A DNA stretch of 64,000 bases from Haliotis rufescens (lineage: Eukaryota). The first letter of the stretch is position 1; each line of letters opens with the position of its first letter. A program made the position numbers. This document shows positions 12,001 to 64,000 of the stretch, one piece after another. The DNA lies in the NCBI RefSeq assembly GCF_023055435.1, contig NW_025964235.1:1550001-1614000 (forward strand), in the 5' to 3' direction.

Positions 12001-15000
12001 ATCATGTGAGCACCTTGATTAAAAACATAAGATTTGGAAAATATCTGCTGACGAGTTGGCAGTGCACATGCTTTGCAATCCAGCAATCAACCGAAATCTG
12101 CACGACAGTTTACGAACCAGATTTTGATTTCAGTGCGCGATTTTGATTGGACTATGTATAGACTCGTTAGCCCAGCCGAAATGTAACTCCATAATACCAG
12201 CCTAGTTCGGCAAGGGTGGAAACTGGACTTTTAAAGTCAGTTAACTCTCTTGCCTCGGGAAGATGGGCAGAGACTGATGATTGTTCCCAATGTATCACAC
12301 CCATTGAATCATATTAATTCCACTGAAACATATTGCTACTTAGATGCATGTGCTGTTTCTAGGTGCATCACAACATCAATTATAAAACACATTTTGACGA
12401 CCTGGGACTGTCAGTTAGACACTATACCCATCTGGAAATTTGAAAACTGGTTTCAACACGATGGGAATGCCTTGACTAGCCATGTAAGCTGCTATTCCAA
12501 TCAGGAAAGCATAAATCATAATATTGGCAGAACTAATGGGGCTGAAATGCCTAAGTGGAGCCTTGAATCTTTACTTCATTATTTTGAATGTCGACTGCCG
12601 ATGTATGGAAGCTAATGCAAAAGCAGTTATTTCAGTTTCAAAGTCTAAAAGATTATACAACTGATTATGTAGGTGTAACAAAAAAATTAAGATTTACTGG
12701 CCTTTGGCTTCACTTCCTCTTTATCATCCATTTTATGTGGTCTAATTTTAATTGCCGTCCATCTAAATATGAAATTTAGAGCAAACTTTTATCCACAATC
12801 AATGAAGAAATCAATCATTCAGCAGGTGAAAAGGAGGATATCTGAATACGGATTGAACAATGAAATCTTATGACGACCAACATGGCCGGAAACCATGCCG
12901 CTCGAAGAGGATCATGGGAACCACTTTCCTATGCAGTCTACACCTTTTACAGATTTTGACCTATTTCTATACCCCTCTACACTATTTTACAAGCATATTC
13001 ATGAAACATATTGCATTAGACCGCTTTCTTGTTAAGGATGGATTTCAAAGGCATTTACAGGTAGCAAAATCTTCAACCAAATAGAAAAACGTAGATTACT
13101 GGGGCGCGGACGACTACCAACGCCTAGACCTGACCTACTTTTACATTTTCAACCAAACAACCGGAAATTTAAAAAAGTGAACGCAGAACATTTAACAACA
13201 AGGAAAATCTGTTCTGAACAGCATGTTGCAGATACCATTGATCCAGGCATTCCGAGCATTCCATCATCTGTTCTCTGTCTCTTTGAAAGGTGACCGTCGT
13301 ACGACATCTTGGAAAATGGATTGTAGGTGGCGCTTTCGAAGAATGGGGAGGTAAGCTAAATAGTCCATCAAATTATACCACTAGAAAATATTACCTCGCA
13401 CGAAGAGACGGAACATGTATCGTAACGCTAAACAAGTGTACATGTTTTTCGTATATTTCACACTTTCCTTCTATGAACAATAAAGCTGAATTAAGTATTT
13501 TGTTTGTTTTCATCCGAACCTTGTATTTATTATTGTCACCCCCAGCTATATACATTGCGTGTTAGTACAGGGGGACTAACTATAATTATGAAAATGAGTA
13601 TATATACATCATACGTACGGAAAAAATAATCATTGTTTATATAATGGAGATATACACTGGATAATTAAAGCCTATTAACTTCACGTATGTAATATGTATA
13701 GGAACTAACTTTATATCGCATATATTTTTGCCACCGGATTGCAGAAAAAACGGCAAACACAATATGTTTTTCAGGTGCAAGATCACACCGCCATTTGGTC
13801 ATCTACAGACGTGGATATACACTTTCCACTTTTAAACACTGAATTTCCTTTGGTTAACACCCTATGTTTCCACAGAGCAAGGTTAAAATATGTCAAATCG
13901 TGAAAAGTGGATCTCCAATAAATGTTGTTGTTCTTAAACTAAACATGGAAATCCAATCCTTCAAGTTTGCTATTGACAACACTGGATGCAAGAACATCAT
14001 CAATATGTAGCAGAGTCCATCAGTTTCCGAACAGACAAGGAGAATGTTTGATGTTATGAATTAAATGAAAAAAAGGACAGTGCACCGAAGGGAGATAACT
14101 GCAATAACTTGTATCAGGCCGGTCGTGCAAGTAGGAAGCTGGGTGCATTCAGAGACATATCGTCTGGTCAGGAGCTAGATCTACGCCACAGTCCGCCACA
14201 GTCTGCCAAGTCCACTATGTCGCGCGTTACACAGGACAGCTACGGTCAGACGAGGGACGGAAGCGAGGTGACCAGGTAGGTCTGTGGTAAAGTCAGGTCA
14301 GCTTCAGGTCAAGGCATGTCACTAGACTTGCTACACGTCCCGTTTACATACTGTCGTTAAAGAGAGACAAGGCTCTAGTTGGTTGGTTTGTTAAATTGTC
14401 TTACGCCGCACTCAGCAATAATCCAGCTATTTGACGGCGGTCTGTAAATAATCGAGTCTGGTCCAGACAATCCAGTTATTGATATCATGAGCATCGATCC
14501 ACGCAACTGGGATCTATGACATGTTTCAACCAAGTCAGCGAGCCTGACCACCCGATCCCGTTACTCGCCTCTTACGACAAGCATAGTCCTTTTACGGCAA
14601 CTAGGCACTAGTGTCCAGTCTAGAATGAGTTTCATGTGTACAGACATTGTCACTGTGTAATTACTGAACAGTCGGGGAAAGGGAAGTATACGCTTGGACA
14701 GCCACCTTTGACTCTGCTCAATACGGTGTACTGTGAAACTGCGACCCCTGGAACGTCATGTGCACGTGACAACATGCTCAATACGGTGTACTGTGAAACT
14801 GCGACCCTTGGAACGCCATGTGCACGTGACAACATGCTCAATACGGTGTACTGTGAAACTGCGACCCCTGGAACGCCATGTGCACGTGACAACATGCTCA
14901 ATACGGTGTACTGTGAAACTGCGACCCTTGGAACGCCATGTGCACGTGACAACATGCTCAATACGGTGTACTGTGAAACTGCGACCCCTGGAACGCCATG

Positions 15001-63000: not shown

Positions 63001-64000
63001 GCAATCGCCTTGAAGCCCAGCATCACCCGGACAGTGTGAATCAGGTGAGTCAACGCAATCGCCTTGAAGCCCAGCATCACCCGGACAGTGTGAATCAGGT
63101 GAGTCAACGCCATATCCTGAAATGTAACACAGACTTGAAGCATTTTGTAGCACAGTTGATGGAAGCACCTGAAACAGACATAAAATACTCACAACACACC
63201 TTTTTGGGGCATAAATACTATTTTGCTATCTCGACAACTACGCTACAAAGCGGTATTGTACGTGACCCACGTGACCCATGTGTACCCATATGGCGGAGTC
63301 CTGGCAGGGAAGATGTACATATTCTTTAAGATGTTTATTCAGGTGAGGAAGTGATAAAATCAAGGGAGGTCACCCAAACGAGCAGCTTCATTTCATCATT
63401 TATCCTCGTGCCAAATTTGCCAATGTCGAGAGACTTTATTGCAAGAGACATTGTTTCAGCCCAGTTTCCCCAGTACGATCCTCCGACCCGGCGAGACCTA
63501 CAGACAGACAACCGTCTACAGATTCAGTGTAGACACCCAGTAGACAAGCAGACACTGTCTACAAATTCAGCGTAGACAGGCAGTAGACTGGCAAACACAG
63601 TCTACAGATTCCATATAGAGGTCCAAAAGACTGTCCTCCCTCGCCATGTTGTCTGCGGCTTCGTCCATGGTAGAGTCACTCCGAGGGGCCGGATGAGGAC
63701 CACTCCTTTCCAGTAAATATCTATGTAGAGCAAATATATTATTCCTCGGTCATATAAAGTAAAGCTGCTCTCAGTTTAAATCATCATGCGTTGTATTTCA
63801 TGGGCGACGCTAAAGAACTCATTGCTGTTTATGTGTTTACCTATAGTGATAAGGAATTAAATGTGCTACTTAGAAGATAAATACTATGTGTGTGTCTATT
63901 TCCGGGATTTTATCGAGTATTTGCATCTTGAAAATTCATCTCGAGACCCGAAAGCGTTAGCTTGTGGGGCTCGAATGAAAATTTCCAAGATGCAAATACT

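What the first reader, a model, noticed from the sequence alone, without database searches (positions are those of the whole stretch)
14217..63543. Four-gene mutarotase cluster with intact catalytic residues but a rebuilt sugar pocket: candidate new substrate specificities
Seen: four intact GALM-fold genes in two subtypes. All keep the equivalents of Arg82, His107, His176 and Glu307 (human GALM numbering, established). All replace the conserved G(F/Y)DHN Asp243 with Thr: GFTCNY in A1/A2 (codons 21400, 34654) and GYTVSY in B1/B2 (50146, 62281). The QFYTGN motif becomes MFYTGH (A), MFYTSY (B1) or LFYTSY (B2). Subtype A also has Asn81 to Asp (GRVADRI, 16629). These residues bind galactose hydroxyls in characterised mutarotases. 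Inference: this is a diversified family acting on other sugars. Losing an acidic pocket residue would suit uronic acids, deoxy or anhydro sugars or L-sugars, for example algal cell-wall breakdown products if the host is a grazing mollusc.
[Added by the scan's program, not by the reader: the finding's places include an assembly gap (unread letters, written N; its length is only estimated) at 39125 to 39265, 56068 to 56856. Whether the letters on both sides are continuous or in frame is not known: test that first.]
Basis: partly seen in the sequence, partly recalled or inferred. Interest (0 to 1): 0.8.

Follow-up and report, generated by a model that had tools for sequence, protein, structure and literature searches.

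The report
Four mutarotase genes lacking the pocket aspartate
An animal genome carries four intact, side-by-side copies of the sugar-anomer-converting enzyme galactose mutarotase that keep the catalytic residues but have all replaced a normally invariant sugar-positioning aspartate with threonine, which suggests an altered but still untested sugar preference.

Summary
Four GT-AG gene models on the + strand close their reading frames. A1 and A2 have 8 exons (349 aa each). B1 and B2 have 7 exons (344 and 348 aa). Every exon maps colinearly onto Pfam Aldose_epim and onto human GALM.

Both assembly gaps lie in intron 1 of B1 and B2, so no codon is interrupted. The exon 1 to exon 2 linkage of those two genes cannot be verified.

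Arg82, His107, His176 and Glu307 are kept in 4 of 4 genes. Asp243 is Thr in 4 of 4. It is Asp in 79 of 79 bacterial relatives, in E. coli GalM and YihR, and in 5 of 5 solved structures aligned, including C. elegans.

Gln279 is Val in the characterised L. lactis enzyme and His in C. elegans.

dN/dS is 0.14-0.34 across an old duplication, which argues that the genes are functional. An hnRNP L-like gene next door matches the vertebrate HNRNPLL-GALM neighbourhood, so the cluster probably sits at the ancestral GALM locus.

New substrate specificity is plausible but untested. Whether Thr243 is common in invertebrates could not be checked, because the protein databases were closed. This is a new variant of a known kind, of moderate interest.

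The parts
14217..22839 (+). Gene A1, 8 exons: 14217-14275, 15805-15935, 16579-16742, 18078-18287, 19712-19799, 21305-21449, 21881-22049, 22756-22839 (stop included). 349 aa. Asp at the Asn81 position (16629), Thr at the Asp243 position (21400), Met at the Gln279 position (21939).
   Evidence: Splice sites and frame. Pfam Aldose_epim exon by exon. HMM mapping. Motifs.
28591..36536 (+). Gene A2, 8 exons: 28591-28649, 29710-29840, 30392-30555, 32081-32290, 34055-34142, 34559-34703, 34871-35039, 36453-36536. 349 aa. 332 of 345 compared codons give the same residue as A1. Thr codon at 34654.
38733..52956 (+). Gene B1, 7 exons (A's exons 3 and 4 are one exon here): 38733-38791, 40884-41011, 43236-43603, 44129-44210, 50051-50195, 50754-50922, 52873-52956. 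344 aa. Thr codon at 50146. Intron 1 holds the assembly gap 39125-39265.
55761..63543 (+). Gene B2, 7 exons: 55761-55819, 60246-60376, 61008-61378, 61872-61953, 62186-62330, 62546-62720, 63460-63543. 348 aa. Thr codon at 62281. Intron 1 holds the assembly gap 56068-56856.
412..3164 (-). 3' exons of an hnRNP L-family gene (RRM3-RRM4 region), head-to-head neighbour of A1. It serves as a synteny marker for the ancestral GALM locus.
   Evidence: Pfam RRM_5, E 5.7e-11. PDB hnRNP L, E 7e-9 and 8e-6. HNRNPLL and GALM are listed together in human 2p22.1 and chicken chr 3.
28093..28170 (+). Relic of a B-type exon 2 (23 of 28 aligned positions identical to B1 exon 2, with an indel), about 420 nt upstream of the A2 start codon. 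It is a remnant of an earlier arrangement of the cluster.
   Evidence: tblastn of all exons against the window.

Best explanation
The window holds a tandem array of four intact, expressed-type (intron-bearing) genes of the galactose mutarotase (aldose 1-epimerase, GALM) family. The array arose by duplication at the ancestral GALM locus next to an hnRNP L-like gene.

Before the old A/B split the pocket was remodelled once. The otherwise invariant Asp243 became Thr and His244 became Cys or Val, together with Gln279 to Met/Leu and Asn284 to His/Tyr. Subtype A later added Asn81 to Asp, plus another Asn to His near the PD..N motif.

The acid/base pair His176/Glu307 and the positioning residues His107/Arg82 are kept, and the genes evolve under purifying selection. 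The most likely reading is therefore that all four are still cytosolic mutarotases using the standard Glu-base/His-acid ring-opening mechanism. The anomeric end of the sugar site lacks its second carboxylate, so sugar positioning differs from canonical GALM and sugar preference probably does too, and the two subtypes differ from each other.

Shown: the gene structures, the residues, their rarity and the selection signature. Inferred: retained catalysis, changed specificity, and the timing of the remodelling.
For: - Four frame-closing GT-AG models.
- Every exon maps colinearly on PF01263 and on an HMM of 79 bacterial GalM ORFs, covering hmm positions 44-395.
- The best solved relative is human GALM 1snz (E 1.5e-37 for one 122-aa exon).
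- Arg82, His107, His176 and Glu307 are kept in 4 of 4 genes.
- Thr replaces Asp243 in 4 of 4 genes. The same column is Asp in 79 of 79 bacteria, in E. coli GalM and YihR, and in human, 4rnl, C. elegans 1lur, yeast Gal10 and L. lactis.
- Of 68 columns at least 90% conserved in the 79 bacteria, 52 are kept in all four genes. The only ones that change in all four and also differ from human are Asp243, His244, Gln279 and Asn284.
- dN/dS is 0.34 (A1-A2), 0.25 (B1-B2) and 0.14-0.17 (A-B, with dS saturated at 2 or more). The Thr state has therefore been held for a long time.
- An hnRNP L-like neighbour is present, and HNRNPLL and GALM are co-listed in human and chicken.
- L. lactis Arg71, His96, His170, Asp243 and Glu304 anchor the sugar and are conserved as far as plants (PMC5622589, passage read).
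Against: - There are no activity, expression or structure data.
- The comparison set of 79 bacteria was chosen by similarity to one exon, so it is biased towards canonical enzymes.
- No other invertebrate sequence except C. elegans 1lur could be inspected. Thr243 may be ordinary in this animal's clade.
- Gln279 and Asn284 vary among bona fide mutarotases, so the 'rebuilt pocket' rests mainly on one residue.
- By recollection, Asp243 mutants of L. lactis are impaired through mis-positioning of substrate. Thr243 could simply mean a slower enzyme.
- Exon 6 (A) / exon 5 (B) matches human GALM only weakly on its own (no hit for a single exon; E 0.0094 as a profile).
- The exon 1/exon 2 linkage of B1 and B2 spans assembly gaps.
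- The joined proteins were not folded, so pocket geometry is inferred from alignment only.
Confidence: 0.5

Rival explanations
1. These are the lineage's ordinary galactose/glucose mutarotases. Thr243, still a hydrogen-bonding side chain, together with Met279 is a lineage-typical, functionally near-neutral or compensated variant of the pocket. In subtype A the compensation could come from Asn81 to Asp. The four copies differ mainly in expression.
For: - The cluster lies beside an hnRNP L-like gene, as GALM does in vertebrates. These are therefore probably the GALM orthologues rather than side copies.
- No canonical G[FY]DHN copy is in the window.
- Gln279 and Asn284 vary in active mutarotases.
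- The catalytic residues are intact and selection is purifying.
- Drosophila also has several Galm genes that differ in tissue expression (PMC11836677, passages read).
Against: - Asp243 is invariant in every comparator inspected: 79 of 79 bacteria, E. coli GalM and YihR, and 5 of 5 solved structures including one invertebrate.
- Four conserved pocket columns changed together.
- Subtypes A and B differ from each other at several pocket-adjacent positions: Asn81, His244, Asn245, Gly283 and Asn284.
Confidence: 0.3
2. These are non-catalytic or weakly catalytic GALM-like proteins (pseudoenzymes, or sugar-binding or regulatory proteins), comparable to the 'Galm-like' paralogues predicted in Drosophila.
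For: - A residue that anchors the sugar next to the catalytic Glu is lost in all four.
- Drosophila has five mutarotase genes, including a tandem Galm1/Galml1 pair. Its 'like' genes are named for loss of active-site or substrate-binding residues (PMC11836677, passages read; its extended data were not seen).
Against: - His176, Glu307, His107 and Arg82 are kept in 4 of 4 genes across a duplication with saturated dS. A protein freed from catalysis would be expected to lose them.
- 52 of 68 conserved family columns are intact in all four genes.
Confidence: 0.12
3. The copies, or some of them, are pseudogenes or assembly artefacts, such as collapsed or duplicated scaffolding around the gaps.
For: - Two assembly gaps lie inside the cluster.
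- The region is full of minisatellites.
- An exon-2 relic exists at 28093-28170.
Against: - All four reading frames are complete with canonical splice sites.
- The copies differ from each other. A1-A2 differ at 13 of 345 compared residues and B1-B2 at 41 of 340, with dN/dS well below 1.
- The gaps fall in introns.
Confidence: 0.03

Closest known systems
Human galactose mutarotase GALM (PDB 1snz/1so0; EC 5.1.3.3)
   Same: It is the best solved relative for every exon that hits anything. The length is the same (about 342-349 aa) and there is no signal peptide. Asn81-Arg82 (subtype B), His107, His176 and Glu307 are conserved. The genomic neighbour is an hnRNP L-family gene.
   Different: Asp243 to Thr, His244 to Cys/Val, Gln279 to Met/Leu and Asn284 to His/Tyr in all four genes. 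Asn81 to Asp in subtype A. There are four tandem copies instead of one.
Lactococcus lactis galactose mutarotase (PDB 1l7j and mutant series 1ns0-1nsz)
   Same: Same fold family. The sugar-anchoring set Arg71/His96/His170/Glu304 has equivalents here (PMC5622589). It also lacks Gln at the 279 position, having Val.
   Different: L. lactis keeps Asp243, and the window genes do not. By recollection only (Thoden et al. 2003, not held), D243N and D243A proteins were studied and Asp243 was assigned a substrate-positioning role near the C-1 hydroxyl.
Drosophila Galm/Galm-like paralogue family
   Same: An invertebrate with several mutarotase genes (five), some in tandem, and some with changed active-site or substrate-binding residues (PMC11836677, passages read).
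   Different: The Drosophila 'like' genes are predicted to be inactive and are mostly testis-specific, and a canonical copy coexists with them. Here all four copies share the change and keep the catalytic pair, and no canonical copy is seen in the window. The residues of the fly proteins were not seen, because the extended data are closed.
E. coli YihR (sulfoquinovose mutarotase) and C. elegans aldose 1-epimerase 1lur
   Same: Both are Aldose_epim members that depart from the canonical pocket at Asn284 (Glu in YihR, Lys in 1lur). 1lur also departs at Gln279 (His).
   Different: Both keep Asp243. YihR also keeps His244 and Gln279. A change of specificity at the C-6 end of the sugar (YihR) therefore does not involve this residue.

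Membership tests
Aldose 1-epimerase superfamily (Pfam PF01263 Aldose_epim), homology | Full-length colinear match to the family profile | tested here: met
   Exon by exon, A1 e2, e3, e4, e7 and e8 match profile positions 3-42, 45-92, 95-164, 232-278 and 279-299. B1 e3 matches 45-164 (E 6.7e-38). All 30 exons of the four genes map in order on an HMM of 79 bacterial GalM ORFs. Exons 5 and 6 alone gave no Pfam hit but do map on that HMM (E 1e-5 to 2e-4).
Canonical galactose mutarotase (GALM/GalM, EC 5.1.3.3) | Catalytic base Glu307 and catalytic acid His176 (human numbering) | tested here: met
   Both are present in 4 of 4 genes. The columns are His in 79 of 79 bacteria and Glu in 77 of 79 (2 gaps).
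Canonical galactose mutarotase (GALM/GalM, EC 5.1.3.3) | Positioning residues His107 and Arg82 | tested here: met
   Both are present in 4 of 4 genes.
Canonical galactose mutarotase (GALM/GalM, EC 5.1.3.3) | Sugar-anchoring carboxylate Asp243 in the G(F/Y)DHN motif | tested here: not met
   Thr in 4 of 4 genes. Asp in 79 of 79 bacteria, in E. coli GalM and YihR, and in 5 of 5 solved structures aligned.
Canonical galactose mutarotase (GALM/GalM, EC 5.1.3.3) | Gln279 and Asn81 sugar contacts. The human contact list is recalled, not taken from any call. | tested here: inconclusive
   The Gln279 position is Met, Met, Met and Leu. The Asn81 position is Asp, Asp, Asn and Asn. However, Gln279 is Val in L. 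lactis and His in C. elegans 1lur, so it does not define the family.
Canonical galactose mutarotase (GALM/GalM, EC 5.1.3.3) | Interconverts alpha and beta anomers of D-galactose and D-glucose | not testable with these tools
   This needs a polarimetric, NMR or coupled enzyme assay of recombinant protein.
GALM orthologue (same locus as vertebrate GALM) | Conserved neighbourhood with an hnRNP L-family gene | tested here: met
   hnRNP L-like exons lie at 412-3164 on the minus strand. HNRNPLL and GALM are co-listed at human 2p22.1 and in one chicken chr 3 interval. Gene order and orientation in vertebrates are recalled, not tested.

The most novel reading that the evidence does not exclude
In this animal lineage the ancestral GALM locus has been converted wholesale. 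The invariant Asp next to the catalytic Glu was swapped for Thr, and the pocket was then diversified into two subtypes. This would yield mutarotases for sugars that canonical GALM handles poorly, for example aldoses modified at C-2 or anionic sugars from the diet. That would be a previously undescribed specificity class within the aldose 1-epimerase fold. It would also imply that galactose entry into the Leloir pathway runs without a canonical mutarotase in this animal.
Probability: 0.2. Interest if true: 0.65.

Novelty: new variant of a known kind. Interest (0 to 1): 0.42.

Why it matters
Asp243 is one of the most conserved residues of a very widespread enzyme fold. A natural, selected, four-fold replicated Asp-to-Thr replacement that keeps the acid/base pair is a ready-made experiment on what this carboxylate does.

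If the copies have new sugar preferences, they would extend the short list of known mutarotase specificities. They would also show how animals handle dietary sugars other than galactose and glucose.

If they turn out to be ordinary galactose mutarotases, they show that the 'essential' positioning Asp is dispensable. That matters for interpreting GALM variants and for annotation rules that call such proteins inactive.

Tried and rejected
- **Single-exon searches of the Thr-bearing exon.** These found nothing in Pfam or the PDB. Only a profile of the four exons reached human GALM.
- **ESM Atlas with the 122-aa exon.** It gave only generic bacterial Aldose_epim clusters with no sequences, so it could not show whether Thr243 occurs elsewhere. 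The second Atlas call was not used.
- **Literature.** Searches found no paper on Thr at this position, nor on mutarotase gene clusters in molluscs. One search was unproductive. Thoden et al. 2003 (PMC2323875) is not held, so the role of Asp243 near the C-1 hydroxyl and the human contact list are recalled. Supplements and extended data (for example of PMC11836677) were closed and may hold the fly residues.
- **E. coli YeaD and YphB.** They were too divergent to align at the pocket columns.
- **Long open frames in the cluster.** 41249-42418 on the minus strand, 53267-54601 on the plus strand and 50810-52369 on the minus strand are products of tandem repeats and were rejected as genes.
- **Other G[FY]D.N matches.** Those at 29646, 1487 and 31164 are isolated chance matches with no mutarotase context.
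- **Organism identity.** No tool here holds animal genomes, so 'mollusc' stays unchecked. I take the contig for a non-human animal: the hnRNP L and GALM exons are only distantly similar to the human proteins.
- **Not done.** No structure was predicted and no complex job was sent.
- **Row dropped.** L045 (a 171-aa fragment) was dropped before the 79-sequence HMM.
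Full report
**What is there**

The window is eukaryotic: 44.7% G+C, with two runs of N at 39125-39265 and 56068-56856. Codon read-out puts the Thr codons at 21400, 34654, 50146 and 62281, and the subtype A Asp codon at 16629 and 30442.

I derived four gene models on the + strand from paralogue comparison and splice-site inspection. All use GT-AG introns and all close their frames.
- A1 runs 14217-22839 and A2 runs 28591-36536. Each has 8 exons and a 1050-nt CDS.
- B1 runs 38733-52956 (7 exons, 1035 nt).
- B2 runs 55761-63543 (7 exons, 1047 nt).
- Subtype B lacks the phase-0 intron that splits GFDK|MLW in subtype A.

**The gaps**

The program's note asked for this test first. 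Exon 1 of B1 (38733-38791) and exon 1 of B2 (55761-55819) were found through their mutual similarity, 72% over 177 nt. Each is 59 nt long, ends in phase 2 and completes an Arg codon with exon 2, just as in A1 and A2.

Both lie upstream of a gap, with exon 2 downstream. The gaps are therefore intronic and no reading frame crosses them. The physical linkage of exon 1 to the rest of B1 and B2 depends on the scaffold.

Gap 1 sits inside a (GT)n-containing ~50-bp tandem array seen on both flanks. Gap 2 follows a GT-rich stretch. I did not fill or look up the N stretches.

**Family**

The joined protein was never built, searched or folded.
- Pfam Aldose_epim matches exons 2, 3, 4, 7 and 8 of A1 colinearly, and matches B1 exon 3 at E 6.7e-38. 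Exons 5 and 6 alone give nothing.
- Against solved structures the best relative is always human GALM (1snz): E 1.5e-37 for B1 exon 3 and 5e-13 for A1 exon 7.
- The Thr-bearing exon gives no hit alone. As a profile of the four copies it aligns end to end with human residues 213-258 (E 0.0094), placing G[FY]T[CV][NS]Y on GFDHNF.

**How unusual is it**

One scan of bacterial genomes with B1 exon 3 returned 80 loci. I dropped one fragment (L045) and built an HMM from 79 full-length ORFs. All 30 exons map in order on that HMM.

| Position (human numbering) | 79 bacteria | Window genes A1, A2, B1, B2 |
|---|---|---|
| Asp243 | D 79 of 79 | T, T, T, T |
| His244 | H 74 | C, C, V, V |
| Gln279 | Q 77 | M, M, M, L |
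| Asn284 | N 76 | H, H, Y, Y |
| Asn81 | N 77 | D, D, N, N |
| Arg82 | R 78 | kept in 4 of 4 |
| His107 | H 79 | kept in 4 of 4 |
| His176 | H 79 | kept in 4 of 4 |
| Glu307 | E 77 (2 gaps) | kept in 4 of 4 |

Of 68 columns at least 90% conserved in the bacteria, 52 are kept in all four genes and 16 differ in at least one.
- Three of the 16 show gaps that come from the exon-wise alignment (split codons or exon edges).
- Two more differ in all four genes but also differ in human.
- Only Asp243, His244, Gln279 and Asn284 change in all four genes and differ from human as well.

The set is biased towards canonical enzymes because it was picked by similarity.

I aligned a bacterial C-terminal half to solved structures.
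- Asp243 is kept in human, Streptomyces 4rnl, C. elegans 1lur, yeast Gal10 and L. lactis.
- Gln279 is His in 1lur and Val in L. lactis.
- Asn284 is Lys in 1lur and Asp in Gal10.
- His244 is Asn in 1lur and Glu in Gal10.
- E. coli GalM is fully canonical. The sulfoquinovose mutarotase YihR keeps Asp243, His244 and Gln279.

The one truly exceptional change is therefore Asp243 to Thr. A paper passage confirms that Arg71, His96, His170, Asp243 and Glu304 anchor the sugar in L. lactis and are conserved even in plant homologues (PMC5622589). That Asp243 lies beside Glu304 near the C-1 hydroxyl and serves substrate positioning is my recollection of Thoden et al. 2003, which is not held.

**Are the genes alive**

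| Pair | Residue identity | dS | dN/dS |
|---|---|---|---|
| A1-A2 | 332 of 345 | 0.057 | 0.34 |
| B1-B2 | 299 of 340 | 0.235 | 0.25 |
| A-B | 55-58% | saturated (about 2 or more) | 0.14-0.17 |

The Thr state and the catalytic pair have thus been maintained on both sides of an old duplication. This argues against pseudogenes and against loss of catalysis. The window holds no further copy except a B-type exon-2 relic at 28093-28170, and no canonical G[FY]DHN copy.

**Context**

Upstream on the minus strand lie the last exons of an hnRNP L-family gene (Pfam RRM_5; PDB hnRNP L RRM3-4). HNRNPLL and GALM are listed side by side at human 2p22.1, and in one chicken chromosome 3 interval (passages read).

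The cluster therefore probably occupies the ancestral GALM locus. Its members are then co-orthologues of vertebrate GALM, and a clade-wide Thr243 state becomes a serious possibility.

**Interpretation**

- *Most likely (about 0.5):* four working cytosolic mutarotases with the standard Glu-base/His-acid mechanism. The anomeric end of the pocket lacks its second carboxylate, so sugar positioning and probably sugar preference differ from canonical GALM, and differ between subtypes A and B.
- *Rival (about 0.3):* ordinary galactose/glucose mutarotases with a lineage-typical pocket.
- *Rival (about 0.12):* Galm-like pseudoenzymes, as proposed for Drosophila, which has five mutarotase genes including a tandem pair (PMC11836677, passages read).
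- *Rival (about 0.03):* artefact or pseudogenes.

A gastropod hepatopancreas transcriptome does list an aldose 1-epimerase (PMC5322654, passage read), but that says nothing about this residue.

**What stayed unchecked**

- The organism.
- Expression.
- The three-dimensional pocket, because the joined step was left out.
- Paper supplements.

Searches found no publication describing this variant.

**Verdict**

This is a new variant of a known kind, with interest about 0.4.

Noticed in passing
window 412-3164 (- strand): The last exons of an hnRNP L-family gene (RRM3-RRM4) lie head-to-head with A1. The same gene pair (HNRNPLL, GALM) is co-listed at human 2p22.1 and on chicken chr 3, which suggests very old microsynteny.
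   Followed up: partly
window 50884-52369 (B1) and 62683-63110 (B2): A 54-bp minisatellite begins inside the penultimate exon. It repeats the exon's last codons (…EAQHHPDSVNQ) together with the splice donor, 27.5 times in B1 and 7.9 times in B2. In B2 the frame stays open through all copies (62439-63326), so downstream donors could add 18-aa units. In B1 many copies carry in-frame stops.
   Followed up: partly
window 52918-53224, and weaker at 63594-63626: A 44-bp tandem repeat starts inside the last exon of B1 and copies its last codons (…TTVYRFSVD.Q) into the 3' flank.
   Followed up: no
window 28093-28170: An isolated relic of a B-type exon 2 (YTLTNNNVLVRVINYGATATDI…) lies between A1 and A2, about 420 nt upstream of the A2 start codon. 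It hints that the array once had another B-type copy or an A-B unit structure.
   Followed up: partly
window 16743-18077 and 30556-32080: Subtype A has a phase-0 intron splitting GFDK|MLW that subtype B lacks (one exon, 43236-43603 and 61008-61378). This is an intron gain or loss between paralogues.
   Followed up: no
window 23202-25348, 26614-27679, 41339-42334, 45063-47615, 48225-49761, 53372-54583, 58204-58848: There is an unusually dense set of long, highly regular minisatellites (periods 18-130 bp, up to 66 copies) in introns and between genes. They create long spurious open frames, for example 41249-42418 on the minus strand and 53267-54601 on the plus strand.
   Followed up: partly
window 39266-39793 and 38960-39124: Assembly gap 1 sits inside a (GT)n-containing ~50-bp tandem array that is visible on both flanks, which probably explains why the assembly broke there.
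   Followed up: yes
loci L001-L080: Bacterial GalM proteins (Bacteroidota, Acidobacteriota, Planctomycetota and others) are 48-62% identical to the 122-aa animal exon in their best aligned segments. That is about as close as human GALM looks in its alignment.
   Followed up: no
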